From Scenedesmus sp. PABB004 (taxonomy: Eukaryota): a stretch of 64,000 nt of DNA. Of this stretch, positions 1-60,000 are shown in pieces (position 1 is the first letter of the stretch; every line of letters starts with the position of its first letter). The stretch spans positions 868,001 through 932,000 of the forward strand of contig JABVCE010000013.1 of the NCBI GenBank assembly GCA_014905635.1, read 5' to 3'. The position numbers and the translations under genes are program-made. The notes under the pieces are model-generated. The model ran no database searches. It was not told the origin of the DNA and worked only from the letters and a program-made list of their open reading frames with translations.

Positions 1-2168
1 CGTCGCGTCCAAGGCCAAGCAGCCCGACGCGGCGCAGCTGCAGTCGGTGCTCGCGCCCGTGGCGGAGCCGATGATGGCCGCCGCGGAGCTCGCAGACAAC
101 CGGCGCAGCGCGGCGTTCCAGCAGCACAAGGCCGCGGCCGAGGCGCTGCAGGGGCTCAGCTGGCTCGCCTACACCGGGCCGGCCTGCGGTGAGCGCCCGC
201 CGCGCCGCCGCAGTCCTTTGCTGCCCGCCGCGCCGCCCACGCCGCGCGCCCGCCGCACTCCTCGCTGCCCGCCTCGCCGCCCACGCCGCCCACGCCGCCC
301 GCGCAGGCATGCCGCCGCCGCCGCAGCACGTGGGCGAGGCGTGGAACGCGGCCGAGTTCTTTGCCAACAAACTGCTCAAGGAGTTCCGGGGCGTGGACGA
401 GGCGCAGGTCGCGTGGGTGCGCGCGCTCAAGGTGCGGCCGCCGCGCGGGCGCGGGCGTGGCCTCGCCGCGCGCGGGCGAGGCTGCCGCTGCGCGGGCGCG
501 CGCGGACGGCGCGCCGCGCGCCCCCGCTCGCAGGAGCTGTTTGCGGGGCTGGCGGGGGTCGTGCGGGCGCACTTCCCCGGCGGGCTGCGCTGGAACCCCA
601 ACGGCTGCGCGAGCATCGCCGCCGCGCTGGCGGCCGCCGCGGGCGGCGCGCCGGCGCCGGCGCCGGCGCCGGCGCCCGCGCCCGCGGCGGCTGCCACGCG
701 CGCGCCGCCGCCGCCGCCGCCCGGCGCAAAGGCGCCGCCGCCGCCGCCCCCGCCGCCGCCGCCGGGGCTGCTGCTGCAAGAGCGGCCGGCGCGCGGCGGC
801 GCCGTGCCGGCGGCCGCCCCCGCGGCGGCGGCGGCGGCGGCATGCAGGACGTTCTCGCGGCGCTGAAGCAGGTGCGTGTGTGCCGTGCGAATGAGCACGC
901 GCGTGAGCGCCGCGCCGTGCGGCCGCCCGCCCGGCCAGCCTCGCGGCGGCTCAACGCCCGCCCGCCGCGCCCGCGTGCGCGCAGGGCGCTGGCGTGACGT
1001 CGGGGCTGCGCAAGGTGACTGATGACATGAAAAGCAAAAACAGGCCCCAGCGCAGCGGCCACGTCGGCGCGGCGCCCGCGCCGGGCGGCGCCGGCGGCGG
1101 CGCCGCGAGCGGCACACCGGCCGCGAAGCAGGCGGGGCCGCCGAGGTGCGGCGCGGCGCCTGCGCGCCGCGCGCCGCGCGCCCGCCCGCGGCGGCGCACG
1201 AGCCGGCGGCCGCGGGCGTCCGTGCGCAGGGTGGAGCTGGAGCGGGAGCGCAAGTGGGTGGTGGAGAACCACGCCGGCGCGGGGGAGCTCGTGGTCACCG
1301 TGGCCAACCCGCGGCACAGCGTCTACATTTTCAACTGCAGCGCGAGCGTCATCCAGGCGCGCCGCGCGCACCTGGACCGCGCCGCGCCGCCCGCCAGCCT
1401 CCCCACGGGCGCGGCCGCGCCCTCTCGTCCCCCTGCGCCGCATGCACGCGCCGCGCCACCCGACGGTCGGCCGCCGCCGCCGCGGCCGGCCCGCTAGGTC
1501 AAGGGCAAGTGCAACGCCATCTCCATCGACAAGTGCTCCAAGACGGGCGTCGTCTTTGACAGCGCCATCGCCTCTTGCGAGCTCGTCAACTGCAGCGGCA
1601 TGCAGGCGAGCACGCGCGCGCGCGCCGGCCAGCCGGCCCCCGCCGCCGCCGCACGGCCGCTGCCGCGGCCGCGAGAGCTGCCCTCCCCCGCTCCGCCGCC
1701 GCGCAGGTGCAGTGCACCGGGCACGTGCCGACGATCTCCATCGACAAGTGCGACGGCGTGCAGGTGCGGCGCAGCGCAGCGCCGTGTGACGCCTGCGCTC
1801 GCGCGCGTCGCCCCGGCGCGCGCGACACCCCCGCCCGTGCCGCCGCCGGCCGCCAGGCCTACATCCCCGCGGCGCTGGCGGCCAACCCTGACTTCCAGGC
1901 GCGCGCGGCGCCGCGCTGGCCCGGCGCGCCACGCGCCCGCACGTGCGCCCTCCCCCTCGCCCGCCTTCGGCCGCCCGGCTGCTCGCTCACGCGCCGCGCC
2001 CCCGGCCCGGCCTCATCGCAGGTGGTGTCGGCCAAGTCGAGCGAGCTCAACCTGCTGGTCGTCGCCGCTGACCCTGACGCCGAGGACGTGGCGGAGCACC
2101 CGCTGCCGGAGCAGTACGTGAGCAGCTTCAAAAACGGCCGCCTCGTCACCGCGCCCGCGAGCCACTGA
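1..2168 (+). CDS. CAP1: Adenylyl cyclase-associated protein (CAP/Srv2), 5'-partial; 7 introns mapped
   Basis: The spliced product has the N-terminal CAP helical motifs (LQGLSWLAY, WNAAEFFANKLLKEF), a poly-Pro tract, the WH2-like GVTSGLRKVTDDMKSKNR and C-terminal CARP repeats (KWVVEN, VKGKCNAISIDKC, VPTISIDKCDG, SAKSSELN, EHPLPEQY). Introns: 189-306, 432-533, 872-984, 1146-1229, 1357-1497 (GC), 1606-1706 (GC), 1764-1856, 1899-2021 (GC). There is an apparent 1-nt frameshift at about 815-841. Confidence 0.93.
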
Positions 2169-2366
2169 TCAGTGGCGAGCTCATGAGCTCGCTGGGCTCG
2201 GGCGGACGGGCGCAAACTGCGTGCGCCGCGCGCGAACTGGGGCGGCGGGGCACTGGGCGGCGCGGCGAGTGATCGCTGGGGTGCAACGCGCTGAGCCCGT
2301 TCAAGGAGGAGCCAGCGGTCACAGGCACCCCGCGCACAGGCTCACAGCACACACGCTTGCCGCGCG

Positions 2367-3434
2367 TCAGCAGCTGTACGCCAGCGCCGCGGCCTCCACG
2401 CACAGCAGCTCAGGGCCGCGCATGCTCGGCAGCGCCCCGGGCTGCGCGGCCGCCGCCAGACCGGCCGCCGCCGCGGCGGCCAGCGCCGCGGCGTCGCCGC
2501 CCGCGGCCGCCGCGCCGGCCGCCAGCAGCGCCTGCCGGCGCTGCTGCGCCGGCAGGCCCAGCCCAGCCAGGGCGCCGGCCGCGTCGTGTGCGCCGTCGGC
2601 GCTGCCGTCGCTGTCGCCGAGCTGCCAGGCGTGCGTGGCAAAGAGCGCCAGCATCTCCGCCGCAGCCCCAGCGGCCGCCGCCGCCCGCGCCGCCGCGGCC
2701 GCCGCGGCCGCCCGCAGCGCGCCGCCCTCGCCACCGCCGCCGCCGCCGCCCCACCAGGTGCCCCCGACGGGGTCTGAGCCCGGCAGCGCGCCCGCCCCCT
2801 TCAGCAGCATCACCAGCGGCGGCACGCGCCTGCGGCGTGCGGCGGGGCGGCGGGGCAGGGCCCCCTGCGTGAGCGCGCCCCGGCGCTGCTGCCGCGCGCG
2901 CCGCGCGCCTCGCGCCGCGCCCCCGCCGGGGGCCCCGCGCACTTCGGCGGCCAGTCCACGAGCGTGGTGGCGGCGGGGTCCTCGGGCAGGCCCGCCAGCT
3001 CCTTTGCCACCTCCACCGCGCGCGCGACGCCGCCGAGCTCATCCACCAGCCCGGCCTGCGCCGCACGGCGCGCGCGGTCAGGCACGTGTGCAGGGCGCTC
3101 CCGCCCGTGCAAACGCTGCGGGCTCGCCAAGGGCCGCGTCTAGAGCGCCGCACCTCGAGCGCCTGCGCGCCGCTCCAGACGCGGCCCTTGGCGAGCGCGC
3201 GCACGTTGTCGCGGGCCAGCCCCCGCCCGCGCGCGACGACGTCCAGGAAGCTCGCGTATGTGTTATCAATCTGACCCTCAACCTGCCAGCCGACGCAGCG
3301 GCGGCGGCGGCCAGTGCGGGCGGGCAGTGCGGGCGGCGAGCGCGGGCGATGAGTGCGCGCGGCCGAGCGCTCCGGCGGCGTGGAGAGCGGGCAAGCGCGC
3401 GCGCGGCCGAGCGCTCCGGCAGCGAGGCGAGCGG

Positions 3435-3487
<53 letters not shown>

Positions 3488-6236
3488 GACCACGGGCGCG
3501 CCTGCTGGAGCTGCTTGGGCGTGAGCTCGCGGAAGGGGCTCGCCCAGTCGGCGTTGTCGCCGCGCGTCACCGCGTCGCCCGTGACGCCGACCTGCGCGAG
3601 CGCCTCGTCCAGCTGCGGCAGGCGGCGCAGGCGGCGGCGGCGCAGGGCGTGCGTCGTGGGGCCGCGCGTCGTGGGGCCGCGCGAGGCGCACCCGCTCGCC
3701 GTGCGGCCCCGGCCCGCGCCCTGGACGGCGCACCTTGAACTTGGCAAAGATGACGCCGATGGAGCCGGTGATCGTCCCCGGCTGCGCGAGGATGCGGCTC
3801 GCTGGCGCCGAGATGTAGTAGCCGCCGCTCGCTGCGCGACGGCGGCGCGTCCAGGGTTACGCGCGCGCTTGCGCGCGCGCCGCAAGCGGGCGGCACGGGC
3901 GGCGGCGCGCGCGCCGCCACCGCGCACCCGCGACGTCACCCATGCACGCGACCACGGGCTTTCCAGCGGCGACGAGCAGCTCCACCTCGCGCGCGATCAT
4001 GTCAGACGCAACGGCCGACCCGCCCGGGCTCGACACTCGCAGCACGACCGCCTTGACCTGCGCGGCGGCGGCGGCGCGCGGGGCTCGGGGCAACGCCCGC
4101 CAGCCACCCCGCCACGCAGCCCGCGCCTGCCAGCCCGCGCACGGCCCGGGCGGGCCGGCGCCGCCGACGCCCGGCCGCGCACGCGCCTGTGGGTTCTCCC
4201 GCATGCCCCGCAGCGCGCGCACGAGCTTGTGGCTCTCGACCGACCCCTCGCCGCCCCCGGCCCCGCCGCCGCCGGCCGCGGCCTGAATGATGGGACCGAC
4301 AGCGCTCACGACCACGACGGCGGGCTTGGCGCCGCCGCCGCGCGCGCCGCCGGCGCCGCGCGGCAGCGCAAGCAGCTGCGGCAGGCCGCTCGGCGGCTCG
4401 GCGCCGCCCGCGTCGGCCGCCGACGCGCCCCCAAGCGCCCGCGCCGCGGCCGGCGGGCCGCCGGGCGCCGCCGCCCCGGCCGGCGCGGCGCCGGCGCCGG
4501 CACCGCTGCCGCTGCCGTCGCCGGCGCCGCCGCCCCAGAGCTCCGCGCGGCTCTTGGCCCACTGCGTCGCGAGGCTGAAGCGCTGCAGCGACACGCGCGG
4601 CCCCGCGAGCGCGAGCGCGCTCGGCGGCGGCGCGCCGGGCTTGGCCGCCGCGGCGCTCCGCGCCTCCGCCAGGCGGCGCTGGACGTCCTCGGGCATGCGC
4701 GCGAGCATCAGCGCCTCCACCTGGTCCCTGCGCAGCCGGCGCGGACGCGGCGGCCTCGGCACACGCGGCGGCGCTCACGGCGGCCGCGGGCGCGCGGGGC
4801 AACCACGGCAGTGGCGGCGGCAGCGCCAGCGACAGGCACGGCGGCAGCGGCGGCAAGGGGCGCCCGTGCGCGCCTGTAAAGCAGCCCGTCGACGAGCTGC
4901 GCCGCGAGCGCGCGCTGCGGCGGCAGCGGCGCGTCGGCGATGGCGGCCTCGACCGCGCCGCGCGGCAGGCGCCGCGCTGACGCGACGCCGGTGACGACGC
5001 CGTCGTAGAGCGACTGGAGCAGCGACTCGAGGTTGGCGCGGTGCGCCGCGTCAAAGCCGGTGCCTGCGCGGCGGCGGCGGCGGTGCGACGGCGACGGCGG
5101 CGGCGGGGTGCTCGCACCGCAGCGCCCGGCGCGCGCGCAGGGGCGCGCCCCCTGCCCGCCGGGGCGGCCGCGCCCGACCGACCTGTGAGTGGCGCGAGTG
5201 CGGCCTTGTACTCCTCGCGCCGGAATACCTGCGGCTGCACCTTGAGCCTGTCCAGCAGCCCCCGCACAAAGACCTGGGTCGACTCAAACCCCAGGAGCGA
5301 GAGCACCGAAGTCGGCGGCATGAACACCTGCGAGCGGCGCGCGGCGGCGGCGCGCCGCTCGCAGGGGCTCGGGGCCTGGTGGGGCTCCGACTCACCACCG
5401 CCACGCACTGGTGAGGCGCCGCCAAGCACAGCCTGCGGCCCGCACACGCGCGCACACGCACCTTGTCCGCGGCCGAGGCCAGGTAAAACACGGCCGTGCC
5501 GTTGGTGCCGCCCTCACCAAAGGCGTTGGAGTAAGCGTAGATGGGCGCGCGGCCGCGCGTGTGAAACTGCGGCGGGCCGTGGGGGAGGGGGGCCGTCGGA
5601 GCGCCGGCCGCCGCGCGCGGCGGGCGGGGCCGAGGCGCCGCGCGCTCCGCGCTCCGCGCGCGCGCACCCGGAAGTCGAGCAGCGCGTTGCGCAGCTCCTG
5701 GAGCTGCGCGAGGCCGCCAAACTGCTCCCGCCCGCCGAGCACCGCAAGCACCCCGCGCACGCGCGCGTCGCGCTTGGCGTCGCTCAGCGCGCCGACGAGC
5801 GCGGCGAGCTCGAGCTGGTGCGCCCCCGCGAGCAGCGCGAGCGGGCTGCTGCTCGCGCGCTCCACGAGCGTCTGCGTCTCCAGGTCCACCTCCAGGTAGA
5901 AGGCCGGCGGCAGGCTGACAAACTCCTGCCGGCCGAGGGTGCGGCGGCGGCGGCGTGCGCGGCGTGCTGAGGCGGCGTGCGCGGCCGCAGCGTGCTCGCG
6001 CGCTGCTGGGCAGGCGGGCCGCGCAGCCGCGTGCGCGGCGTGCGTCGCGCGCCGCCGCGTGCGCGCCGCGCCTGCCAGGCGCGGTACTTGGCGTAGAGCG
6101 CGCTGCCGGCGCTGAAGACGAAGAGCGCCGCCGCGGCGCGCCCCGCGCCGCGCCACGCGCCGCGCGCCGCCGCCCAGAGGTCGGGGCGGCCGGCCGCCGG
6201 CGCCGGCGGCGCCGGCGGCGCCGGCGCCGGGTCCAT
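2367..6236 (-). CDS. SPPA: Signal peptide peptidase SppA / protease IV (S49, two-domain), 11 introns
   Basis: Spliced motifs: LQELRNALLDFR, REEYK (catalytic Lys), RVSSPGGSAVASD, GDVAASGGYYIS (catalytic Ser), TITGSIGV, AKGRVWSGAQA, GLVDELGG. The start at MDPAP is uncertain, because an out-of-frame transit-peptide-like ATG lies at about 6425. Confidence 0.9.
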
Positions 6237-8359: not shown

Positions 8360-10093
8360 ATGGCAGCGCCGGCGCGGCTGCTCGCGGCGGGGCGCGGCTG
8401 CCCGCCGGAGCTGCTCGGCGCCGGCCCCGGCGGCGCGCTCGCGGGGCTGGAGATCCTGCGCCCGCTCGCGGCGTCGGCGCAGTGCTTCGTCGCGGCGGTT
8501 CGCACCCGCGCGGGCGGGCGGCTGGGCGTGGTCAAGAGCTACCGCAAGAGCGCGCTCGACGACGGCGCGCTCGCGCAGGTGGAGCTGGAGGTCAAGATAC
8601 ACGAGCAGCTCGACCGCGCGCTGCCCGGCGGCGTCGTGGGCTTCTGGGCGGCGCTCGAGGACGGGTCGCAGCTCCACATCCTCACCGCGCACGCGGCGTG
8701 CGACCTGCGCGCGGCGCTCGCCGCGCGCCGCGGCGGCGGCATGCCCGAGGCCGCCGTCGCGGCGCGCGTCGTCGCGCCGCTGCTCGCCGTGCTGGCAGCG
8801 ATGCACGCGCGGCGCTGGCTGCACCGCGACGTCAAGCCGGAGAACGTGCTGCTCCCCGACAAGGACGGCCCCGCGGTGCTGGGTGACTTTGGCCTCGCCA
8901 TTGCGCTGCCCGCCGCCGCGCGGGACAGGGCGGAGCGGGCGCAGCCGGCGCCGGGGCAGCAGACGGCGACCGCGCCCGCGGCCGGCGGGCAGCGCCCTCC
9001 GCGCAGCGGCGGCGGCAGCTGCGGCGGCGGCGGCGCCGGCGCCGGCGGGCAGCGGCCGCCGATGCTGCGCAGCAGCGCGAGCAGCGACAGGATCTGCCTC
9101 CTCGGCGGCAGCGCCGGGGGCGGCGGTGGCGACGACGACGACGCGCCGCTGCCGCCGCGCGGCCCCCGCGTGCGGCGCAGCAGCAGCTCCGGCTGCCTGC
9201 CGTATGACTGCCGCAAGCTGCCGCAGCTCACGGCGGACCAGCTGCACGCCGGCGGCACGCCCGCCTACTCGGCGCCAGAGGTCGTGCTGTCGGCGTTCCA
9301 CAACACCCCCGTGGCGGCCGCGCTCGGCCCGCAGGCGCGCCGCTCAGCACCGCGACGCGCCGCGCCCCAGGCCGCGCTCCGGGCCGCGCGCGCGGCGGCG
9401 CCGCGCGCGCGCGCGCGCGCCCGCGCCCACACGACCACACGCCCGCGCCGCGCGCAGAACGACGTGTGGTCGCTGGGCGTGCTCGCTTGGGAGTGCCTGA
9501 CCGGGCAGCACCCCTTTGGCGATCCGAGCATGAGCCCTGGGGCCTACATGTGCCGGATCGTGAGCCCCGCGCCGCTGCCCTTTGACGGCCTGGCGCGTGC
9601 CGGCGTGTCGGCCGCCGCGCGCGACTGGCTCGCGGCGGCGCTCTGCCGCGACCCCGCGCAGCGCGCGACGGCGGCGCAGCTGGCGCGCCACGCGTGGCTG
9701 GACGGCGCCGCCGCCGCCGGGGAGGAGGACGAGCAGGCGGCTGCGGCGGCGCAGCAGCCGCGCGGCGGCGGCTGCCCGGAGCAGCTCCAGCACCGGCAGC
9801 GCTCCTGCCCCGAGCCGCGACTGCAGGGCTGCACCTCGGACGACCTGCCGGGCTCCGGGCCCAGCGGCAGCGGCGCGGCGGGGCTGCACTCGCTCAGCGG
9901 CGGCAGCCCGTTTGGCGCGCCGGCGGCGGCGGCAGCGGCCGGCGACGGCGGCGGCGACGCGGGCGGCGGCGGCGGCGACGCCCCGGGCAGCCGCGAGGGC
10001 AGCGCCAGCCATTGCGGCGGCGCGCTGCGCGCCTCGCTGCAGCAGCGCAGCGGCGGCACGCTCACGTTCCCCTTGAACAGCTGGGAGGACTGA
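8360..10093 (+). CDS. Ser/Thr protein kinase (algal Aurora-like family, tentative)
   Basis: Motifs VVKSY, HRDVKPEN, DFG, GTPAYSAPE and NDVWSLG. One in-frame GC-AG intron at 9335-9457 and a long insertion in the activation loop. Confidence 0.88.
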   Translation: MAAPARLLAAGRGCPPELLGAGPGGALAGLEILRPLAASAQCFVAAVRTRAGGRLGVVKSYRKSALDDGALAQVELEVKIHEQLDRALPGGVVGFWAALEDGSQLHILTAHAACDLRAALAARRGGGMPEAAVAARVVAPLLAVLAAMHARRWLHRDVKPENVLLPDKDGPAVLGDFGLAIALPAAARDRAERAQPAPGQQTATAPAAGGQRPPRSGGGSCGGGGAGAGGQRPPMLRSSASSDRICLLGGSAGGGGGDDDDAPLPPRGPRVRRSSSSGCLPYDCRKLPQLTADQLHAGGTPAYSAPEVVLSAFHNTPVAAALGPQARRSAPRRAAPQAALRAARAAAPRARARARAHTTTRPRRAQNDVWSLGVLAWECLTGQHPFGDPSMSPGAYMCRIVSPAPLPFDGLARAGVSAAARDWLAAALCRDPAQRATAAQLARHAWLDGAAAAGEEDEQAAAAAQQPRGGGCPEQLQHRQRSCPEPRLQGCTSDDLPGSGPSGSGAAGLHSLSGGSPFGAPAAAAAAGDGGGDAGGGGGDAPGSREGSASHCGGALRASLQQRSGGTLTFPLNSWED

Positions 10094-26289: not shown

Positions 26290-26320
<31 letters not shown>

Positions 26321-28557: not shown

Positions 28558-29356
28558 TCAGCTCGGCCGCTGCGGCGGGCTCGCGCTGCGTGAGCTGCTC
28601 TCCACATCAAACGACTGCGCCGCTGTGGGGCACGGTGCAGCGCGGCGGCGCGCGGCGGCGGCGTGGGCAGACACGGTAGGACGGGGCGGCGCGGCGCGCG
28701 GCGCGTGCGCGGCGGGCAGGCTGCGGAGCGCGCGGAGTCGCGCGCGGGAGCGGGCCGCGCCTTGATCTCGCCTGCAAAGCGCGTCGGGAAGTCGGTCGCG
28801 TCGAAGCTCTCGATCGGGCTCACGCCGCTCTTGCCAGCCAGCAGCGCGTCGTAAAAGGGCTCGACCTGGGCGCGGCGCGGCGTGAAAGGACGGAGCACGC
28901 GGGCGCTGCGGCGGCGGAGGCGCGCGCTGCGGCGGCGGCGGCCGGGCGCCCCGCGGGCCCCGCCCGCTGCCGGCCGCACCTCGTGCCCCAGCGACAACAC
29001 CACGGCCATGCCTGTGACCATGACTCGCCGGCTGCTGCTGTCCTGCGGGCGCAGCCGCAAAACGCGCGGGCGCGCGCGGGCGGCGTCGGCGGGCGGGCGC
29101 CCTGCGCGCTGTGGCGGCGCCGCCGGCCGCTGCGCGCGCCGAGCAGCGCGCGCCGCCCACCGTGCAGGCGGCTGCCCGCGTCACCACCCGCGCGCGGCTA
29201 CGAGCTGCTGCTAGCCGCGGGCACTGCGGGCGCCGTCTCGGGATCGCGCCGTCTCGGGACCGCGCCGCTGCGTCCGCCGCCCGCCGCAGCAACGCACCAA
29301 GCTGCTAGTCTCTGCACGCCTGCTCGAGCGGGCGGCGGGCGGGCGGGCGTGATCAT
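28558..29356 (-). pseudogene. Truncated plastid beta-ketoacyl-ACP synthase (KAS/FabF) fragment
   Basis: RRVMVTGMAVVLSLGHE|VEPFYDALLAGKSGVSPIESFDATDFPTRFAGEIK|SFDVE matches the FabF N-terminus. Homology is then lost and a TGA follows at 28558. A 16-nt duplication at 29232-29263 frameshifts the transit peptide. Confidence 0.75.
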
Positions 29357-48856: not shown

Positions 48857-51820
48857 TCAGCGCCCCAGGCGCTGCCTCTTGAAGCCCTGCCTCACGCAGT
48901 CTGGGTAGGTCAGCGGCGCGACGGTGAGCCCCGCGAGCGCGCCTGCGGGCGGGCGGGCGGCACCGAGTCAGTCGCCGCCGCCGCGCGCCCGTCGCGGGCA
49001 CGCCCGGCCCGGCGCTGCCCCGCGGCGGAGGGCCACCGCGCTGCGCAGCATGCGCTGCGCACTCACCGGTGAAGCCCGCATTATAGTCGACCGCGACCTC
49101 GTTGCTCATCGCGTCAGTTCGGTCGTCCCTGTAGACGTCGCTCGGGTCTGGGCCCCCCACCAGCGCGCCCGTGATCGTGCGCGGGTTTGGCCCGGGCAGG
49201 GTAAAGGCCCGATAGTCGCAGGGCGCGGGCGGGTCGGGGCACGACGCCGCGCGGTGGTGCACGCGGCGCGGCGGGTCGGTGCCGTAGCCGACGACGAACG
49301 ACCGCCCCGCGTCGCCGAGGGCGTAGCGGATCTGACCGTGAGCGAAGCAGACCGCGCGGTCGCGGCGCGGCGCGTCCAGGCGCGTCGCGTGGATCAGCAT
49401 GAGGAGCGCGGCGTTGGCCGCGTGCCGAAGGCTGCCCCAACCATTGTCTGCAACAAACCAGGCGAAGCCCTTCGGACTGAAGACCCAGCTCTCGGTGCCC
49501 TTGTAGGCCGTCAGCGTCTGGCGGCGCGGCGGCGGGCGCGCGCGGGCGTTTGACCGGGCGGTTTGACCGGTTTCGGGGCCGCAACGCGGCCAGCGCAGCC
49601 ACAGCGCGGCGCGGCGCGCGCGCCAGGGGCGCGCGTCACCTCGAAGAGCGCGCCGATGTGCTCCGCGTAGGCCGCGTCCGGCAGCCGGCGCGAGAGCAGC
49701 AGCGCCGTCGCGGCCGCCGTGGTGTCCCAGTAGTGGCCGAGGCGGTACTTTGCAAACGCCGCGGCCTCGAGGCTGCGGTGCGCCGCGTAGTGCCGCGCGG
49801 CGTCGGCCAGGTAGGCGGGCGCGCCGGTCGCGGCGTACAGCCAGGCGGCGGCCCAGGCGAGGTCGTCGTAGAAGCTATGGCTCGGATAGAACTGGGCCGC
49901 GTCGGTCGAGCAGTTGACCCAGTAGAGGCCTTTGAAGGTGGACGCAAACCTGCGGGCGCGGCGGGCAGCGGCGCGGCGGTGGCGCCCGTGCGCGCGCGTG
50001 TCTGGGGTCGAGGGGAGGGGGGATCCCAAGCCTGCCCGCCCAAGTTGCTCGGAGCCCGCGCCGCTGGCGCCGCCGCTCACGTGTACATGCGCTGCGCCGA
50101 TTTCAGGCACCGCGCCGCGTAGCTCGGCTGTCCCCCGCCGCTGGCACTGGTGGCGGCAGCTGCGCCGCCGCTGCTGCCGCCGCCCTGGCTGCTGCCGCCG
50201 CCGCCACCCGAGCTGCTGCCGCCGCTCGCCTGTGAGCTGCCAGCGCTCGGCGCCGGCGAGCTCGGCGCCGGCGAGCTCGGCGCCGGCGACCTCGAGCTCG
50301 GCGCCGCCTGCGCGCCCCTGCTGGCCGCCGCGAGCGAGGCGCTGCCCGCCTGCGCGCTGCTGGCGTTGCCGCCCTGCAGCAGGCGCCGCGCCGCCGCGCC
50401 GCCGCCCTCCTCCGCAGCCGCCATCGCCATGAGGGTGCTGTTGCCAAAGACCATCGACGCCGCCGCGAGCGCCGCGGCCATCGCGCCCGCGACGTCCGAC
50501 CCCGGCGCGCCCGGGCCGCACACCGCCACCGGCCGCGGGTCGGTGATGTCCTCGGGCCGCCTGCGCCGCGCCGCAAACGGGGCGAGCGCGTGCGCATGCT
50601 CGGCTGCCCGCCGCGCCGCCCGCTCGCCGCCCGCGCCGCGCCGCCCGCCGCGCGCCACGCCGCCCAGGCCGCCGGCGCGCCGCGCCGCCCCGGCCGCCGC
50701 CGCCGCGCGGCGCCCGCACCTCCAGAACGCGTGGTCGGCCTTGCCCAGCCCCACCTGCGCTGCGACCTGGTTGGGCCCGAGGTCGCACTTGAGCAGATAG
50801 TCAGTACCCCATTTTAGCGTGGCCACCGCGTGGCCCAGCTCCCCCGCGCGGCGATAGCCCTGCACGCAGCGCAGCGGGCGGCGGCGGGCGGCGTCTGCGC
50901 CGGCGCGGCGCTGCGCGGCAGCTGTGTGACGCGCGGCGCCCCGGCGGCGCGCAGCGTCAATCAGCGCGCGCGCCTCTGCAAACTCCAGGATGCTCCACGC
51001 TATGTTAGTCAGCGCGAACGCCTGCGGGAGGTTGAACTTGACGTAGTCCCCTGGGGGGGGGGGGGGCGCGCGGGGGCGGCGCTGGCGGGGACCAGGGGAG
51101 GGCAGCTGCGCCGGGGTGCGCAGCAGGCGGGGGGCCGCACGCGCTACCTGCGTCGAAATACCCGCCGACGAGGTCCTGCCCCCGGGCGCGCGGTCGGCGA
51201 GCGCCGCGCTGCGCCGCCAGGCCACGCGCTGGTTGGGCGGCAGGAAGCCGCTGCGCTGGGCCTCGTAGAAGAGGAGCGACAGCCCCAGCACCTCGCCGTA
51301 GTCAAAGTCGCCGGACGGCGTGAAGCGCGCGGGGATATCGTCGACCGCCGCGAGCCGCCGAGCGGCGGCGCCTGCGCACACCGTTGCGGCGGCCGGTGAG
51401 GGCGGCGGCGGGCGGCGAGCGCGGCGGTCAGCGGCGGTTGCGGCGGCGGCGGCGGCGGGGGAAAGAGCGTGCCCTCGCGCAGGCGCGGCGGCGGGTGAGA
51501 AGCAGCGGCGTTTGGCGTCACTCGCGGCCGGCGCCGCCACGCGGCGGTCTGGCGACGAGCTGTCAAGCTGCGCTCCACTGAGACCGGGCCGGTCAATTGC
51601 GGCCGGGGCGGCCAGGGCGGGGAGCCAGCCGCGGGCTGGCTCGCGATTGCGCACCAGGGCGCTGCAGCCAGCACCTCGCGCGCGCAGCCACCGGCGCGCG
51701 CGCCGGCGTGTTTGTGTCACACATGCACCACCTCACGCGCGCACCTGCATGAGGCGTGAAGCCGAGCAGCGCGACGAGCAGCGCTGCCGCCGCCCGCGCC
51801 GGCGCGAGCGCTCTCAGCAT
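48857..51820 (-). CDS. Secreted glycoside hydrolase family 9 endoglucanase, 7 introns
   Basis: Signal peptide, SLLFYEAQRSG, DLVGGYFDAGDYVKF, KWGTDYLLK, YDDLAWAAAWLY, HHRAASC, GALVGGP and NEVAVDYNAGF. There is an apparent 1-nt frameshift in a homopolymer at 51179-51183. Confidence 0.93.
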
Positions 51821-52700: not shown

Positions 52701-55700
52701 ATGGCGCCGGTGCGGCGCGCTCCGGCCGGCTGCGATTGAGGAAGCGGCGGCGCGCCCTGGCTGCGCCCTGAGCTGCCGGCCGCCGCTCCGCTGCTGCCGG
52801 CACCCGCAGTCGGCCGCCGCCGTCCGGGGCGGCGACGGCGACGGCGGCTGCTTCGTGACCTTCCTGCCCGGCGACAACCAGGACCTCGCAAGCGCGTCGA
52901 CGCAGGCGACGGTGGAGCTGATGTCGGCGGACCTGTCGCAGCTGCTCCGCCTGCCGCCGGCGGCGTTCTGGCACGTCGTCCTCGCCGACGCGTCGCTGCA
53001 CGCCTGCCTGGACTCCTTCCTGCGCTTCCGCAGGCGCGCGCGGGGCGGCCGCGCGGCGCAAGCGCGCGCGGGGTGCCTGCAGCGCGTGCACGCCGCGGAC
53101 GCAGCCGCGGCGCCGACCTCCCTCCCCGGCGCAGGCGGTGCTACGACGACGACGGCGACGCGCAGGGCGCGGTGCAGGGCTCGTCGGACGTGCTGCTGCA
53201 GCTGTCGCAGCGCGTGTTCAAAGTCTTCTGGCGCATGTGCGCGCGGCGCGGGGCCAGCAGCCCGACCGCCCCTGCAGCGCCGCTCGCCCGCCGACGCGCG
53301 CCCCGCGCGCGCCTCGCTCGCGCAGGGCGCACCCGCAGGAGCTCACGGACGCCGCGCCGCGGCAGCCGCCCGCCGCTGGCGGGCGCGGCGGCGGGCGCGG
53401 CGGGCGCGGCGGTGGCGGCCGGGCCGGCGCAGCACCTGCGGGCGCGCTGCAGCCGGGCGATGCGGCGGCCGCGCTGTACGATCGCTGGCTGGTGGACGTG
53501 CCGAAGCTCATGGACCTGGCCGTGCTCTATGGCCCCGGCAACCCGGAGCTCACGCGCCAGCTGCTGCAGCAGGTGCTGCGCCTGCAGCCGCGCTACGCCC
53601 AGGTGCGGCGGGGAGGTGTGCTCGGCGGCGGTCCCGCCGCGGCGCCCTCGCGCACGGCGCGGCGCGGCGCGCGCTCACGCGCCTGCGGCGTCCGTCCGTC
53701 CGTCCCGGGCGGCCGGGCAGGACGTGGTGCGCCTCGCCGAGCCGCTGAGCGGCAACCTGCACGAGCTGGCGTTGAGCGTGAAGCGCCTGGCCAACCGCGC
53801 GCTCGCGGGCGCCAGCGCGGGCGACGGCGCCGGCGCGCCGCTGCTCGCGGAGCTCTCCGGTGCGCGGCACGGCCGCGCGGCGGCGCGCCCGCGTCGAACA
53901 TGCGGACGGCCGCGCCGCCGCCGCGTGCGGCCCGCCGCCGCCGCCTTCTCTGCCGCCGACCCGCCGCTGCGCCGACGCCGGTCCCACCACTGCAGAGTCG
54001 GTGCGTTACTTCACGGACGCGTTCCTGACGCTGCAGGCCCTGGCCGACTGCCTGCCCGAGGCCGCCGCGCTGCTGCTGGCGCCGGTGCACCACGGCGCGC
54101 TGCTGCTCGCGCTCGCCGTCGTGCACGGCGGCGTGCTGCCGCTGCTCGCGCGCGTCGCGGCGCAGCCGCAGGCCGCGGCGCACCCGGCGCTCGCGCCGGG
54201 CCGCGTGCGGCGGCTGCAGGTCGCGCTCGAGCGCCTGGTCTTCTGCCTCCTGCGCGCGGCGTTCTGCACCCCCGAAGGCGCCAGCGCGGCTGCCGCTGCC
54301 GCCGCTGCAGCTGCGGCCGCGGCGGGCGCGGGCGCCGAGGCGCGCCGCGCCGGGCGCGGCCCGCGGCGGCGCCGGCGGACGGCGGCGGCTTCAGCGCTGA
54401 GCTGCAGGGCCAGGAGCTGATGAACCTGCTCATGCTGCTGGCGCACCCCTCGGACCACACAGCTGCTGGCGGCGACGGCGGCGGCGGCGGCGCGCCGCAC
54501 CAGCAGGCGGGCCTGCTGACGGCGCTGAATCACGCGCACCACCTGGACGTCGCAGTGGCGGGCGCCGCGGAGCTGGTGCGCAGCGCGCGGGTCATTGCAG
54601 CGCCTCCGCGCTCGTCGCTGCGGCGCCTGCGCCTTGACCGCCCGCCCGCCCGCCCGCGCGCGCGCAGGGCCTGCTGTCGCTGGACGACGCCCAGTTTGAT
54701 TACATGCTGGCGCTGCTGGACGGCGACCGCGAGCTGCTGCAGCGCCGCCAGCAGCAGCAGGTGCAGCAGCAGCAGCAGCAGCAGCCGCAGCCGGGCGGGG
54801 CAGCTGGCGCCGTCGCCGCCGCCGCCGCCGGCGCCGCGCAGACGGCGCCGCCGCCTCTGGGCGAGCTCGCGGCGCAGCTGGCCGCCATCCGCGAGCTGCT
54901 GCCTGACTTTGGCGACGGCTACCTCACCGCCGCGCTCTTCCACTGCGGCTGGAGCACCGAGGCGGCGATCAACTGCCTGCTCGAGGGCGCCCTGCCCGCG
55001 GGGCTGCGCGGCCTCGAGCCGGGGCTCAAGTCCTGGACGCCGCCGGCCGCGGGCGCCGGCGGCGACGGCGGGCAGGCGGGGGCGCTGTCGTGGACAGGCC
55101 TCGCGCGCGAGGCGGCGTCCGCCGCGCCGCCGCGCGGCGCCGCCGACGTGCCGCTGCCGAGCGCCGCGGCCGCGGCGGCGGCGGCGGCGGGCGGCGGGCC
55201 GCGCCCGGCCGTCGACCGGCGCACGGGGCGCGTGCTCGGCGCGCTGCCGGCCGCTCTGCGCTCGGCGACCAAGAGCATCGCGGCGGAGATGCAGTTTGAG
55301 TATGACGACGAATATGACGACTCCTTTGACGACCTGGTCGGCCCCGGCGCCGACGGCGTGTGCGACATCGAGGTCGAGGACAGCGGCGCGGCGGCGGCCG
55401 CGCGCGGCGGCGGCGCGGGGCCGAGCGGCGGCGGCGCCGGCGGCGCGGGCCCGGGCGGCGCGGGCCCGAGCGGCGGCGCCGGCGCGGGTGCGCGCGGCGG
55501 CCGGCGGCCCGCGGCGGACCGGCTGTGGGTGGCGGACGGCAAGGTCTATAACTACAAGCGCGCGGGCGCGCAGGAGGTCGCCGGCCAGGCGGGCGCGGCG
55601 GCGGCGCTCGCGGCGGCGCGCGCGGCGGCGGCGCAGATCCACGGGCTCGGCCCCGGCGGCAACGTGCCGCCGCCCGCGGCGCCGCCGCCGGGGCAGGGCC

Positions 55701-56942: not shown

Positions 56943-57759
56943 CGTGGCAGGCACAACGGCGAGGGCGGGGGAGTGGCGAGCGAGGCGGCGCGGCGCGCTG
57001 GGAGCGGTCGGGCGCGCGGCCGGCCGTCACGCGCAGCGCGCGCACAACAGTCGCGAGGCGACGTCGGATCGCGCGTGCAGTAGCTCGTGCCCCCCTCTGC
57101 CTGCGGCGGGTGCGGGACCGAGCGGGCGCGTTGCCGCCGCCGGCGCCGGCCGCCGGCGACGTCGCGTGCGCCGCGCCGGCCCTGGCCGCCCTGGCCTGCT
57201 GCGCGTGTCGACGACGTGACCCCGCTCTATCTAGCATGATGGCGTGCCAGCAGCGACCGCGGTCGGAGAACGGCGGCTCGAGGTCGTGGGCACCGCTGGC
57301 ACGACTCCCGGCGCTGCGCGGCCTCCCCGCGCCCCGAGCGCCTGCTCTCCACATCACCACTCCACACGCCCCCTCTCCGGCGCCAGGCAGGCGGCCGGAA
57401 CGCCCTGCGCGCGAGCAGCAGGCAGCGGCAGCCGCGCGCCAGCGCCCCGCCCCACCCCACCCAGGCCTCGCCAGCCGCCCACGCCACCCTCACAGGCTGT
57501 GCCCCCACCCGGCCAGCCCCACGCGCCACCCCCCGAGCTCCCACGCGCGCCGGTCACCGGGAAGGGCGCTTCCCCGCTTCGCGGCCGGCAGAAGCGCAGC
57601 CGGAGGCCCCTCGCCGCCCGCGCGCGCGCCTGGCAGCTCACTTACATTACGTCCCACCCTCTCGACCATCGCGCCGCGCCCCCCTCGCCCCGCATCGTCG
57701 AGAAGCCGGTGCCCCCCCGGACGGCGGCACCGCGCGCGCCGCGCCCTGCGCAGTGCGTC

Positions 57760-60000
57760 ATGGCCAGCGGTCGTTCGCGGCTCTCCTGCTGCTTCGCGGC
57801 CCCCAGAGGTGCGTGCGCCCGGTGGCGCCCGGTGGCGCTGCGGGCGGGTGCGCCCGGCCGCTGCGGTGCGCCATCGGGCCCGCCGCGGCGCGGTGTGACG
57901 AGGGGGGATGTCGACGGCACCGCTGGGCGCGCGCCCCGCCCGCGGCGCGGCCCGGAGCGGCGGGGGCGCCGGCAGATGCGCGCCAGCCTGCCCCCGCCCC
58001 AATCGCCGCGCCCCGGCGCCGTGGGCCCGCCCGCGCCCGCGTGGGGCCTGCTCGCTGCCCCTCGCCCCTGACGCGACCGCCGCCGCGCCGCCGCAGTCGA
58101 GGAGGAGCCCGCCGCCGCCGTGGCGCCGGCGCCCGCGGGCGAGCACAAGCAGCTGACCTGCAAGACCTCGGTGGTCACGGCCCACGCCAAGGCCCTCTCC
58201 GCCGCCGACGCGACCGCCGACTTCGGCATGGGCGACGGCAAGGCCGGCTCGCCGCGCGTCGCGGGCCGCAAGTCGGAGCAGCAGCCGCTCGCGCAGCAGC
58301 CGTCGCTGGGCCTGCAGGACATGCCTAGCATCAAACCCCTCACCGCGATGACGCTCAACCGCACCTACACCGGTGCGGCGCGCCGCGCAGCCGGCGGCGC
58401 GGCCAGCGCGGGGCGCGCGCCCGCCGCCGCGCCGCGCCGCGCCGCGCCGGGCCGCGCGGGCCGCCAGCAACCGCCGCCAACCGCCCGGCACGCGCGTCGC
58501 CGCGCCGGCGCGCCGCCGCCGCGTCGGCGCAGACGACGACTGGTTTGCGGCCATGGCCGCGCTGGACCGCGTTAAGAAGATCCAGCAGGCCCGCGCGCTG
58601 GCGGCGCTGCGCGCGGCGCACCCGCACCGCGGCCCCGGCGCCGCGGGCGGCGGCGCGGGCGGCCCCGCCGGCGGCGGCGACGACGACACCGAGGCGTGGT
58701 ACGACGCGCGGAGCCACACCATGAGCGACAGCAGCGTCGCGTTCATCAGCGACGCGGAGCGCGAGGAGGTGGCGCGGCTCGCGCACGAGCTCGAGGCGCA
58801 GGAGCACGCGCAGCAGCAGCTCACCGTGTCGCTCTCGGTCAAGCGCGAGCTCGCGGCGCCCACGCCCGCGTGCGTGCCCGACCCGCCGCTGCTGTTTGCG
58901 GAGAAGCACTGGCGCTACTGCGAGGCACGGCGCCGCATGCGGGGCGCGTGGGGCGCCAGCGCGCTGCGGCTGCGCGCCGCGCGGCGGCGCGCCCACCCGT
59001 CGCCGCGCCGTAACTCTCACCCCCCGCCGCGCCGGCGCCGCGCCGCGCCGCGCGCCGCAGGTCGACCTGAAGCCCTTTTGCTTCTACTGGGAGCGCGACC
59101 CCGTGCGCAGCAGCCCCTTCCCGCTGCCCATCGACCTGCAGATGAACCTCAACAGCCTCTTCCAAAAGACACACCAGTCCATCCCGGGCATGTGGGTGAG
59201 TGCCACCCCGCGCCGAGCGCCGCCGAGCGCCGCCGCCGAGCGCCGGCGCGGCGGGCGACGGGGGCGCGCGCGCCGCGGGCGCGCGCAGACCGCGCTGACC
59301 GCGGCGCCGCCGCGCCGCGCGCAGCTGCGCGACGTGGGCAACCAGCTGCTGCTGCACGCGCAGCCGACCATCATGGCCATCCCGGGTGCGGCCCGCCGCG
59401 CCGCGCCACGCGCTGCTTCCCCGCCTCTCCGCCCGCGCCCGCGGCCCCCAGAGCTCAGGCTCCATCTCGGGTGCGACCCGCAAAGAAAAACACTCAGCAC
59501 ACACTCAACACACACGCACACCCTGTCGCACCGCAGGCATCGTGAACTACACCGAGTACTACAACAAGGACCAGAGCCCCGAGTCGTGGACGCTGCGGCG
59601 CGACATCAAGGTCGGGAAGACGACCGGCCAGATGTTCATGACGACCGACGGCCTCCTCATCTTCCGGTGAGCCCCGGCCCGCCCGGCGTGCGCCGCCGCC
59701 CGCGCGGCGCATTGAGCGCGCCGTCGCCCGCGCCGCCGCCGACGCGCCGCGGCCGACACGCTGCTGCCGCTGCCGCCGCCGCCGCCGCCGCCGCTCGCGC
59801 CGCCGTGCAGCGTGTTCACGTCTGGCGTGTTCAGCAAGGCGATCGAGTGGATCGGCGAGGACTACATCCGCCTCGAGGACGGCGGCGAGACGATCGTGAC
59901 GCGCCAGCTGTGCAAGCTGTTCAGCGACAACTCCACGTGCAGCCAGTTCCTCATCGGCCGCAAGATCGGCGACGCGCCGCCGGGGCGCAAGGCGCACTGA
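57760..60000 (+). CDS. Uncharacterised protein, 6 introns, with a globular C-terminal domain
   Basis: A consistent exon chain: MASGRSRLSCCFAAPR|VEEE..., DDDWFAAM..., VDLKPFCFYWERD..., YTEYY...WTLRRDIKVGKTTGQMF..., IEWIGEDYIRLEDGGETIVTRQ...*. Confidence 0.75.

What the first reader, a model, noticed from the sequence alone, without database searches (positions are those of the whole stretch)
1357..59060. Exceptionally frequent GC-AG introns (about 1 in 5) across the window
Seen in sequence: splicing conserved proteins by hand requires GC donors at 1357, 1606, 1899 (CAP); 6071, 4873, 4186, 3501 (SppA); 9335; 16783; 19912, 20463; 27013, 26345, 25698, 25192 (ABCB); 28760; 33885, 34094 (Era); 36535, 35846, 35531 (IVD); 38763; 46961, 47194; 50973; 53034; 58925. 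That is 27 of about 121 mapped introns (about 22%, manual count). In 26 of the 27 the exon ends in AG (CAG/AAG/GAG|GC), whereas GT donors follow varied exon ends. Established: GC-AG introns are about 1% of introns in most eukaryotes and normally compensate with a near-perfect AG|GCAAGT. Here the intronic part is mostly GCGCG, with no such compensation. Inference: this alga's spliceosome tolerates +2C routinely when the exon ends in AG, which would be a relaxed, exon-end-driven mode of 5' splice-site recognition. Standard gene finders would mis-annotate these genes.
Basis: partly seen in the sequence, partly recalled or inferred. Interest (0 to 1): 0.85.

Follow-up and report, generated by a model that had tools for sequence, protein, structure and literature searches.

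The report
Frequent GC-AG introns in high-GC alga
About one intron in five in this stretch of an extremely GC-rich green alga starts with GC instead of GT, almost only where the preceding exon ends in AG; this is real, but the same pattern is already known from other GC-rich algae.

Summary
Sources name the window as Scenedesmus sp. PABB004. A comparative paper lists that genome at 78.5% GC; the window is 79%.

All 27 listed sites read as claimed: 26 AG|GC and 1 GG|GC, and 24 introns start GCGCG.

Support for the 27 sites:
- 14 are the best GY-AG junction against relatives' proteins.
- 6 more are exactly collinear with Pfam profiles or solved structures.
- 3 fit by length only.
- 2 rest on the public gene models.
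- 2 rest on composition alone.

No RNA run was available. Six public gene models give an independent count of 12 GC-AG among 72 introns, or 17%.

The AG rule is strong: 26 of 27 GC donors follow AG, against 22 of 65 GT donors (p = 9e-9).

The intron side is the same in both classes, GCG(C/G). The exon side, -3C and -2A, makes up for the lost +2 pair.

Read-through ORFs of relatives start with Val at four of these junctions, which implies GT at the orthologous donors.

The public annotation already uses 12 of the 15 claimed sites I could examine.

Abundant GC-AG introns in GC-rich algae were published in 2011, 2014 and 2024. Verdict: a new member of a known kind, of moderate interest.

The parts
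1357..1497 (+). GC-AG intron in the CAP gene (141 nt)
   Evidence: Class B. CAP_C profile positions 45|46 abut across it.
1606..1706 (+). GC-AG intron in the CAP gene (101 nt), donor CAG|GCGAG
   Evidence: Class B. The upstream exon ends at CAP_C 81. The downstream exon starts at human CAP1 chain residue 81, which equals Pfam position 82.
1899..2021 (+). GC-AG intron in the CAP gene (123 nt, in frame)
   Evidence: Class C. Length fits within 3 residues. There is no frame-compatible GT with the same acceptor.
3283..3501 (-). GC-AG intron in the SppA gene (219 nt)
   Evidence: Class A. Scores 147 and 145, equal to the optimum, against GT alternatives at 94 and 93. Peptidase_S49 positions 87|88 abut. 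Used by public model P0015.
4058..4186 (-). GC-AG intron in the SppA gene (129 nt)
   Evidence: Class A. With P0017 it scores 185, the optimum, against GT at 170. With P0016 the scan did not return this pair, but P0016 is collinear across the junction. Used by P0015.
4728..4873 (-). GC-AG intron in the SppA gene (146 nt)
   Evidence: Class A. Scores 107 and 111, the optimum, against GT at 74 and 78. Used by P0015.
5926..6071 (-). GC-AG intron in the SppA gene (146 nt)
   Evidence: Class A. Scores 178 and 181, the optimum, against GT at 115. Used by P0015.
9335..9457 (+). GC-AG intron in a protein kinase gene (123 nt, in frame)
   Evidence: Class A. The alignment to the T. obliquus protein P0012 is gap-free and scores 239. 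The nearest GT donor, at 9311, scores 194 with an 8-residue gap. Public model P0040 reads through the intron.
16678..16783 (-). GC-AG intron in the DUF5054-family gene (106 nt); the only one after GG
   Evidence: Class A. With P0038 it scores 220, the optimum, against GT at 164. Used by public model P0027.
19912..20022 (+). Putative GC-AG intron in the KRE6/SKN1 gene (111 nt, in frame)
   Evidence: Class E. It has 9% A+T and a coding score of -0.41 per codon, like proven introns. Public model P0021 reads through it. Pfam gave no hit on either version.
20463..20586 (+). GC-AG intron in the KRE6/SKN1 gene (124 nt)
   Evidence: Class D. Used by public model P0021. Composition is intron-like. No relatives were retrieved.
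25037..25192 (-). GC-AG intron in the ATM1 gene (156 nt)
   Evidence: Class A. Implied by P0001. The alignment with P0002, P0006 and P0009 is gap-free. Five relatives' read-through ORFs show Val, hence GT, at this point.
25560..25698 (-). GC-AG intron in the ATM1 gene (139 nt)
   Evidence: Class A. Scores 223, the optimum, against GT at 209. Also supported.
26156..26345 (-). GC-AG intron in the ATM1 gene (190 nt)
   Evidence: Class A. Scores 198, the optimum, against GT at 135. Also supported.
26874..27013 (-). GC-AG intron in the ATM1 gene (140 nt)
   Evidence: Class A. Scores 202 and 196, the optimum, with no GT alternative. There is no GT within -30..+45 of the donor.
28595..28760 (-). Putative GC donor after a ketoacyl-synthase-like exon; the acceptor is uncertain
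   Evidence: Class E. The exon before it matches ketoacyl-synt weakly. The segment after it has intron-like composition. No downstream homologous exon was found. P0001 reads through it.
33885..33991 (+). GC-AG intron in the Era GTPase gene (107 nt)
   Evidence: Class C. Two exons of 51 and 34 residues fill Era profile positions 92 to 177.
34094..34245 (+). GC-AG intron in the Era GTPase gene (152 nt)
   Evidence: Class C. Same bookkeeping as the previous intron. The acceptor is fixed at 34246 by the profile. There is no GT within -30..+45 of the donor.
35390..35531 (-). GC-AG intron in the isovaleryl-CoA-dehydrogenase-like gene (142 nt)
   Evidence: Class B. Acyl-CoA_dh_1 positions 108|109 abut. 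There is no GT within -30..+45 of the donor.
35703..35846 (-). GC-AG intron in the same gene (144 nt)
   Evidence: Class B. Acyl-CoA_dh_1 positions 51|52 abut.
36341..36535 (-). GC-AG intron in the same gene (195 nt)
   Evidence: Class B. Acyl-CoA_dh_M positions 42|43 abut.
38763..38879 (+). GC-AG intron in the guanylate kinase gene (117 nt)
   Evidence: Class B. The read-through ORF aligns to human guanylate kinase chain residues 64-156 and then 158-185, with about 40 extra residues exactly over this span. There is no GT nearby.
46961..47079 (+). GC-AG intron in a chlorophyllase-like hydrolase gene (119 nt), donor CAG|GCAAT
   Evidence: Class A. Scores 154, 147 and 155, against optima of 154, 153 and 155. 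GT alternatives score 77, 75 and 70.
47194..47312 (+). GC-AG intron in the same gene (119 nt)
   Evidence: Class A. With P0010 it scores 172, the optimum, with no GT alternative. The scans with P0013 and P0014 were uninformative. All five relatives are collinear across the junction.
50860..50973 (-). GC-AG intron in the glycoside hydrolase family 9 gene (114 nt)
   Evidence: Class A. Four relatives score 113, 150, 109 and 141, against optima of 116, 150, 112 and 141. The best GT alternatives score 45, 71, none and 87.
53034..53134 (+). GC-AG intron in a gene of unknown family that includes a CUE domain (101 nt)
   Evidence: Class D. Used by public model P0019. Composition is intron-like and the flanking exons are strongly periodic. 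No relatives were found.
58925..59060 (+). GC-AG intron in a conserved gene of unknown function (136 nt), donor GAG|GCACG
   Evidence: Class A. It is the best canonical pair with 3 of 3 relatives: 332, 299 and 317 against optima of 335, 299 and 320. Used by P0020. Four relatives' ORFs show Val, hence GT, at this point.

Best explanation
These are ordinary U2-type spliceosomal introns of Scenedesmus sp. PABB004 whose donor reads GC instead of GT.

The genome is under extreme pressure towards G and C. Introns are 86-87% GC, and among pyrimidines inside introns C makes up 87%. That pressure turns the +2 T of donors into C.

The change survives only where the loss of the +2 pair with U1 snRNA is made good by pairing of the exon end. 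In practice this means exons ending in CAG, and less often AAG or GAG.

After CAG the +2 letter is close to free, with C in 69-77% of cases. After other exon ends it is held at T in about 98% of cases.

**Shown here:** the positions of the introns, the AG/CAG rule, the identical intron-side consensus in both classes, and the equal total match to the U1 consensus.

**Inferred:** that U1 pairing is the constraint, that the direction of change was T to C, and that the window's frequency holds genome-wide.
For: **Reality of the introns.**
- 20 of the 27 claimed introns are fixed by relatives' proteins, Pfam profiles or solved structures.
- 16 of the 27 have lengths that are not multiples of 3, so they must be removed to keep the downstream homologous exons in frame.

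**Same kind as the GT introns.**
- Mean length is 137 nt, against a median of 120 nt for GT introns.
- A+T is 13.3% against 14.0%, while flanking exons have about 30%.
- The acceptor is GCAG in 22 of 27 GC introns and 44 of 60 GT introns.
- None carries U12 motifs, 0 of 27.

**Rule and compensation.**
- Exons end in AG at 26 of 27 GC donors and 22 of 65 GT donors (p = 9e-9).
- CAG ends 20 of 27 GC exons and 6 of 65 GT exons.
- +3..+6 is GCGC or GCGG in 22 of 27 GC donors and 40 of 65 GT donors.
- Matches to CAG|G.AAGT outside +2 are 4.93 for GC and 3.95 for GT donors.

| Exon end | GT | GC |
|---|---|---|
| CAG | 4 | 9 |
| other AG | 14 | 2 |
| not AG | 42 | 1 |

**Neutral expectation.** Inside introns C/(C+T) is 0.866.

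**Direction of change.** Relatives' ORFs that read through the intron begin it with Val, or with Arg-Cys in phase 2. This implies GT. It is seen at the junctions orthologous to 25192 (5 ORFs), 25698 (1), 46961 (1) and 58925 (4). None begins with Ala, as the window's read-through does.

**Literature.** GC-AG abundance tracks genomic GC content in algae, and the U1 5' end is canonical in Aureococcus and Micromonas (passages of PMC3033335). The rest of the GC 5' splice-site consensus is stronger than in GT sites (passage of PMC3167603).
Against: - No transcript of this organism was seen, so splicing at these sites is inferred from homology. Two of the relatives are transcriptome-derived proteins of other algae.
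- The U1 snRNA of this species was not seen. No genome is held and Rfam found nothing in the window.
- The GT state in relatives is read from protein letters, not from DNA.
- The 27 GC sites were picked by hand by a reader who may have looked for AG|GC. This is partly answered by the public-model subset and by the unbiased junction scans, which found no well-supported GC donor after a non-AG exon end other than 16783.
- Seven sites are not firmly fixed.
- The genes for which I retrieved relatives were chosen because they held claimed sites, so the 13 GC among about 42 clean scanned junctions is biased upward.
- Micromonas RCC299, at 64% GC, has only 2.7% GC-AG. GC content alone therefore does not determine the fraction.
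Confidence: 0.8

Rival explanations
1. The spliceosome of this lineage has itself changed, for example through a variant U1 snRNA 5' end, U1C, or a U6 or Prp8 contact. Under this reading +2 C is recognised as well as +2 T, and the GC-AG excess reflects altered machinery rather than tolerated decay.
For: After CAG the +2 letter is C in 69-77% of donors, near the neutral 87%. Iwata and Gotoh could not explain the 22% against 2.7% difference between two Micromonas species by U1 sequence, and they suggested U1 snRNP proteins or base modification (passage).
Against: A changed machinery that accepted C freely would not need the CAG exon end. Yet only 1 of 44 donors after a non-AG end is GC. Total complementarity to the standard U1 consensus is the same in both classes, as the standard machinery predicts. 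No component of the spliceosome was examined here.
Confidence: 0.13
2. Most of the GC donors are artefacts of hand splicing. AG|GC and AGGCGCG are common by chance in 79% GC DNA, and the true donors are nearby GT sites or the segments are coding.
For: AGGCGCG is not enriched, with 71 found against 110.6 expected. An unconstrained self-training gene parser drifted to more than 50% GC donors. A supervised parser called 52 GC donors among 158 introns, many of them dubious. So GC donors are easy to over-call.
Against: At 20 of the 27 sites homology fixes the junction, and GT alternatives score 14 to 83 points lower or do not exist. Six sites have no GT at all within -30..+45. On the sense strand of genes, 23 of 40 AGGCGCG heptamers sit exactly at the claimed exon ends.
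Confidence: 0.03
3. The C at +2 is an assembly or base-calling error, and the real letter is T.
For: No reads covering the donors could be examined. The one DNA run laid gave only a few short, near-identical contigs, and none of those listed lies on a donor.
Against: A substitution error would have to strike 27 times at exactly +2, and only after AG exon ends. The rest of each locus translates cleanly into conserved proteins. This is an argument from inference.
Confidence: 0.02
4. The GC-AG introns are copies of a spreading intron family (introner-like elements) that happens to carry a GC donor.
For: The donor and acceptor ends are stereotyped (GCGCG ... GCAG). An all-against-all BLASTN of 87 introns gave 1880 non-self hits.
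Against: No pair exceeds 77% identity. GC and GT introns hit each other alike, as expected for two-letter (87% GC) sequence. Relatives have introns at the same positions at four junctions, so those introns are old.
Confidence: 0.02

Closest known systems
Abundant GC-AG introns of GC-rich algae: Aureococcus anophagefferens 39.6%, Micromonas pusilla 22.2%, Chlorella sp. 7.7% (Iwata and Gotoh 2011, PMC3033335; passages read)
   Same: The genome is very GC-rich. GC-AG introns make up a tenth to a third of all introns, and they are U2-type. The authors attribute the excess to GC content.
   Different: This is another lineage (Chlorophyceae, Scenedesmaceae) and a still higher GC content (78.5%). The strict (C)AG exon-end rule, and the near-neutral +2 after CAG, are quantified here. 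I did not see either in the passages I read.
Emiliania huxleyi, 56% GC-AG among 241 manually mapped junctions (Feldmesser et al. 2014, PMC4028052; passages read)
   Same: GC donors were forced by manual gene definition. The shift is attributed to GC content. Ab initio models under-call GC donors.
   Different: That organism is a haptophyte, the fraction is much higher, and it was confirmed by RT-PCR. No RNA evidence is available here.
Pelagophytes: Aureococcus about 14-17% and Pelagomonas about 14% GC-AG (bioRxiv 10.1101/2024.10.30.620910; one passage read)
   Same: The fraction is similar, and the excess is attributed to high GC content.
   Different: Those are stramenopiles with few introns per gene. 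This alga has many short introns per gene.
Ordinary GC-AG introns of animals and plants, about 1% (PMC3167603, passages read)
   Same: The +2 C mismatch with U1 is offset by a stronger remaining consensus.
   Different: There the compensation includes the intron side (GCAAGT). Here the intron side is GCG(C/G) in GT and GC donors alike, and all the compensation sits at -3 and -2.

Membership tests
U2-type GC-AG introns | The intron begins with GC and ends with AG | tested here: met
   27 of 27 begin GC. With the acceptors assigned, 27 of 27 end AG. The acceptor of 28760 is uncertain.
U2-type GC-AG introns | The segment is absent from the mature mRNA | not testable with these tools
   No RNA run is listed. 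Indirect support: the spliced reading is collinear with relatives' proteins, including transcriptome-derived P0006, P0013, P0022 and P0034.
U2-type GC-AG introns | The remaining 5' splice-site positions are stronger than in GT introns (compensation) | tested here: met
   Met on the exon side: -2A is 96% against 38%, -3C is 77% against 49%, and consensus matches outside +2 are 4.93 against 3.95. The intron side shows no difference.
U2-type GC-AG introns | The length, composition and acceptor match the species' GT-AG introns | tested here: met
U12-type (minor spliceosome) introns | An ATCC(TT) donor box and a TCCTTAAC-like branch box | tested here: not met
   0 of 27 have ATCC at +3..+6. 0 of 27 have CTTAAC in the last 40 nt. 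Both motifs are recalled; PMC3033335 gives ATATCC and CCTTAAC.
GC-AG enrichment of GC-rich algal genomes (pattern of Iwata and Gotoh 2011) | A genome GC content of about 65% or more | tested here: met
   The window is 79.3% GC. The genome is listed at 78.5% in a table of PMC12571836.
GC-AG enrichment of GC-rich algal genomes (pattern of Iwata and Gotoh 2011) | GC-AG introns make up several per cent or more of all introns, genome-wide | tested here: inconclusive
No genome is held.
Introner-like repeated introns | The introns are near-identical copies of one another | tested here: not met
   The best pair among 87 introns is 77% identical, and the hits are compositional.

The most novel reading that the evidence does not exclude
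In this lineage the identity of donor position +2 has become effectively neutral whenever the exon ends in CAG. C is found there in 69-77% of donors, against 87% expected with no selection. The 5' splice-site code has then shifted from 'GT' to 'CAG|GY or G|GT'. If this holds genome-wide, and if it rests on a change in the U1 snRNP or in later proofreading of +2, it would be a natural experiment on how the spliceosome reads +2.
Probability: 0.15. Interest if true: 0.6.

Novelty: new member of a known kind. Interest (0 to 1): 0.35.

Why it matters
- **Annotation.** Gene finding in this and similar very GC-rich algae must allow GC donors, ideally conditioned on the exon end. The public annotation has only 7,092 genes, and the models I examined include fusions and read-through errors. 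In DNA where nearly every frame is open, a missed in-frame intron goes unnoticed.
- **Splice-site evolution.** The window gives a clean, quantitative case of mutation pressure eroding a core splice signal exactly as far as U1 pairing allows. This bears on the question that Iwata and Gotoh left open, of why GC-AG fractions differ so much among GC-rich algae.
- **Limits.** This is not a new kind of splicing.

Tried and rejected
- **RNA evidence.** No RNA holder was listed for window:24500-34499.
- **Reads.** The one DNA run (X1, contigs) was laid on 19500-39499. 94% of what was laid runs on unlike the window. Only a few short contigs about 99% alike appeared, and none of the eight listed pieces lies on a claimed donor. 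This gives nothing on the +2 letter.
- **Whole genome.** None is held, so no genome-wide count and no U1 search were possible.
- **Rfam on the window.** 0 matches.
- **Ab initio parsing.** An unconstrained self-training parser ran away to 505 'introns', 286 of them GC, on both strands together. A supervised parser gave 158 introns, 52 of them GC, in sense regions. It also made errors: it chose 46979 instead of 46961, invented a 10-residue micro-exon after 35846, and placed the acceptor of 50973 wrongly. I used it only to propose exon pieces, not as evidence.
- **Motif enrichment.** AGGCGCG occurs 71 times against 110.6 expected, and GGTGCG 161 against 160. On the sense strand the 17 AGGCGCG that are not claimed donors compare with 22 antisense copies, so there is no clear avoidance.
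- **Orthologous DNA from metagenomes.** The search for related loci with P0020 matched 60 stretches, but none encodes a relative. I did not use the second scan, because an 8-residue pattern invariant in the JGI relatives had already failed.
- **Representative search.** A four-gene alignment was swamped by glycoside hydrolase family 9, which took 131 of 132 hits. It returned nothing for CAP or KRE6.
- **Pfam and NCBIfam on single exons.** No hits for the two Era exons next to 33885 and 34094, for the KRE6 exons around 19912, or for the exons after 28760 and 53034.
- **A possible further GC donor in the family 9 hydrolase gene** (about 50386-50389 to 49950). It scored 9-16 points below the optimum with all four relatives, so I left it open.
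- **Alternative GT donor at 9311 in the kinase gene.** It restores the spacing that I recall as usual between two kinase motifs. I rejected it because the T. obliquus protein keeps the eight extra residues.

Full report
**What the window is.**
- The 64 kb are 79.3% G+C (G 25,639, C 25,141, A 6,716, T 6,504). Every 4-kb bin lies between 76.8 and 81.3%.
- Nearly all six reading frames are open: 118,581 of about 128,000 codons lie in stop-free stretches of 50 codons or more.
- A three-base periodicity marks short exons.
- A search with one exon returned a protein 100% identical over 94% of the query. Its sources name it ATM1 of Scenedesmus sp. PABB004, on a contig of 1,182,092 bases.
- A table in a comparative paper lists this genome as 39.8 Mb, 77 contigs, 7,092 genes, 78.5% GC, GCA_014905635.1 (PMC12571836, passages read).
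- Pfam on 111 open frames identified the genes:
  - CAP
  - SppA
  - a protein kinase
  - Bax inhibitor-1
  - ubiquitin-RPS27a
  - a DUF5054-family gene
  - KRE6/SKN1
  - ATM1
  - Era
  - an isovaleryl-CoA-dehydrogenase-like gene
  - guanylate kinase
  - a short-chain dehydrogenase
  - a chlorophyllase-like hydrolase
  - a family 9 glycoside hydrolase
  - a CUE-domain gene
  - a class-V aminotransferase

**The observation at face value.**
- All 27 coordinates are the G of a GC that follows AG (26 sites) or GG (16783) on the stated strand.
- 24 of the 27 introns begin GCGCG.

**Controls against chance.**
- The heptamer AGGCGCG is not enriched. It occurs 71 times on both strands, against 110.6 +/- 11.6 in dinucleotide-preserving shuffles.
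- A self-training gene parser that was free to use GC donors drifted to more than half GC donors.
- So neither the motif nor ab initio parsing counts as evidence. The test has to be homology.

**Homology tests.** For each pair of neighbouring exons I scanned all donor and acceptor positions within 45-100 nt. No splice-site rule was imposed. Each in-frame, stop-free joined translation was scored against a relative's protein.

- **Behaviour at known GT introns.** The GT pair reached the unconstrained optimum, or came within 6 points of it, and always beat the best GC pair.
- **Behaviour at 13 claimed GC sites.** The claimed GC-AG pair was the best GY-AG pair. It equalled the optimum or lay within 6 points of it.

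| Gene | Site(s) | Result |
|---|---|---|
| ATM1 | 27013, 26345, 25698 | GT alternatives absent, 63 lower and 14 lower |
| SppA | 6071, 4873, 4186, 3501 | GT alternatives 15-63 lower |
| Hydrolase | 46961, 47194 | best pair with P0010 |
| Unknown gene | 58925 | best pair with 3 of 3 relatives |
| DUF5054 gene | 16783 | 220 against 164 for GT |
| Family 9 hydrolase | 50973 | best pair with 4 of 4 relatives |
| Kinase | 9335 | 239 gap-free, against 194 with an 8-residue gap for the GT at 9311 |

- **25192.** The scan did not cover it. It is implied by the public protein, and it gives a gap-free alignment with three relatives.
- **Rows that did not reproduce a claimed pair.** These were SppA 4186 with P0016, and 47194 with P0013 and P0014. 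In each the ungapped seed alignments were placed differently. The same relatives are collinear across these junctions.

**Profile and structure tests.**
- Exon-by-exon Pfam coordinates abut exactly at four sites:
  - 1357: CAP_C 45|46
  - 36535: Acyl-CoA_dh_M 42|43
  - 35846: Acyl-CoA_dh_1 51|52
  - 35531: Acyl-CoA_dh_1 108|109
- They also abut at 3501 (Peptidase_S49 87|88).
- For 1606, the upstream exon ends at CAP_C 81. The next exon starts at the human CAP1 residue that corresponds to position 82.
- For 38763, the read-through frame aligns to human guanylate kinase residues 64-156 and then 158-185. About 40 surplus residues sit exactly over the claimed intron.
- For Era, the two exons bounded by 33885 and 34094 hold 85 residues, for 84 profile positions between anchored exons. 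This is a fit by length only.
- 1899 fits within three residues.

**Composition.**
- The 27 claimed introns have 13.3% A+T, and 60 GT introns have 14.0%. Flanking exons have about 30%.
- The unverified segments look like proven introns. 19912-20022 has 9% A+T and a coding score of -0.41 per codon. The stretch after 28760 scores -0.53.
- Six sites have no GT at all within -30..+45 nt. Six more have no frame-compatible GT-AG alternative.

**What the public annotation does.**
- I retrieved seven public models overlapping the window: P0001, P0015, P0019, P0020, P0021, P0027 and P0040.
- Exact mapping shows 72 canonical introns in six of them, 12 of which are GC-AG.
- All 12 are claimed sites. The models read through three other claimed sites: 19912, 28760 and 9335.
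- The models have other faults.
  - P0027 fuses the DUF5054-family, ubiquitin-RPS27a and Bax inhibitor-1 genes into 1,388 residues.
  - P0001 carries a ketoacyl-synthase-like N-terminus.
  - P0040 is a single 577-residue read-through.

**Anatomy of the two donor classes**.
- The set is 65 GT donors and 27 GC donors. The 65 GT donors are 60 from the public models and 5 from my mapping.
- Both classes share G at -1 (90% and 100%) and GCG(C/G) at +3..+6.
- They differ in the exon. -2 is A in 96% of GC donors and 38% of GT donors. -3 is C in 77% and 49%.

| Exon end | GT | GC |
|---|---|---|
| CAG | 6 | 20 |
| other AG | 16 | 6 |
| not AG | 43 | 1 |

- The public models alone show the same pattern: 4/9, 14/2 and 42/1.
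- Matches to the universal donor consensus outside +2 are 3.95 for GT donors and 4.93 for GC donors. With the +2 T counted, GT donors reach 4.95, so the two classes are equal.
- Inside introns C/(C+T) is 0.866. After CAG, therefore, the +2 letter is not far from free drift. After other ends it is held at T.
- GC introns are mostly phase 0 (8 of 12 in the public models, against 23 of 60 for GT introns). This fits exons that end in a Gln, Glu or Lys codon.

**Direction of change.**
- Several relatives in the protein collection are open frames called on genomic contigs, and they run on into the intron.
- At the junction orthologous to 25192, five of eight relatives continue with Val followed by unrelated residues. 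The same is seen in one of five relatives at 46961 and four of twelve at 58925.
- At 25698 (phase 2), one relative continues Arg-Cys.
- Val is GTN, so these introns begin GT. The window's own read-through gives Ala (GCN) at every one of these sites.
- This is an inference from protein letters. I could not fetch the DNA.

**Mechanism.**
- The best reading is tolerated decay of +2 under GC pressure, bounded by base pairing of the donor with the U1 5' end.
- The consensus and the principle of compensation come from passages of PMC3167603 and PMC3033335.
- The introns are not U12-type, and they are not copies of a repeated intron.

**Novelty.**
- Abundant GC-AG introns in GC-rich algae are in print.
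- For this organism I found nothing.
  - 'PABB004' occurs in 15 papers, none on splicing by title.
  - 'GC-AG' with 'Scenedesmus' gives 2 irrelevant papers.
  - 'GC-AG' with 'Chlamydomonas' gives 19 papers, none reporting such a fraction by title or abstract.
- Supplements were not consulted, and the species table of PMC3033335 (its Additional file 1) was not read.
- Earlier notes of this scan concern Ostreococcus GT introns with a GTGCG donor. They do not bear on GC donors.

**Verdict.** This is a new member of a known kind.

Noticed in passing
window 10485-18216 (-): Public model P0027 (1,388 aa) fuses three separate genes: a DUF5054-family gene, ubiquitin-RPS27a and Bax inhibitor-1. Between aa 848 and 853 no canonical junction could be found. 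This fits the genome's very low annotated gene count of 7,092.
   Followed up: partly
window 28761-29021 (-): Two exons encode the N-terminus of a beta-ketoacyl-ACP-synthase-like protein, but there is no room for the rest of the gene before ATM1. The public ATM1 model P0001 takes them as its own N-terminus through a 707-nt intron. This may be a truncated gene copy.
   Followed up: partly
window 27933-28194 and 29666-29858: One 547-nt contig of the freshwater metagenome run X1 lies on both stretches, with 94 other letters in place of the 1,471 bases between them. This may be an indel between strains that spans the synthase-like fragment, or it may be a chimeric contig.
   Followed up: no
whole window: Introns are much more GC-rich than exons, at 86-87% against about 70%. 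Low A+T content is therefore itself a good intron marker here.
   Followed up: yes
whole window: The heptamer AGGCGCG is under-represented relative to dinucleotide shuffles, with 71 copies against 110.6 +/- 11.6. All 100 shuffles had at least 71. The cause was not determined.
   Followed up: partly
window 8849-9238 (+): The kinase gene carries about 130 codons between the DFG motif and the activation-loop motif. The T. obliquus protein P0012 lacks them: its residues 169 to 171 bridge the gap. This stretch is an intron, a low-complexity insert, or both, and its boundaries were not resolved.
   Followed up: no
P0012 compared with window 8357-10093 and 46300-48500: The T. obliquus model P0012 joins a kinase domain and a chlorophyllase-like domain in one protein. 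Here the two orthologous genes lie 37 kb apart. Either that model fuses neighbouring genes or the loci have been rearranged.
   Followed up: no
window 49950-50389 (-): A further junction in the family 9 glycoside hydrolase gene has a GC donor near 50386-50389 as its best canonical solution. It scores 9-16 points below the unconstrained optimum with four relatives, so this may be an additional GC-AG intron.
   Followed up: no
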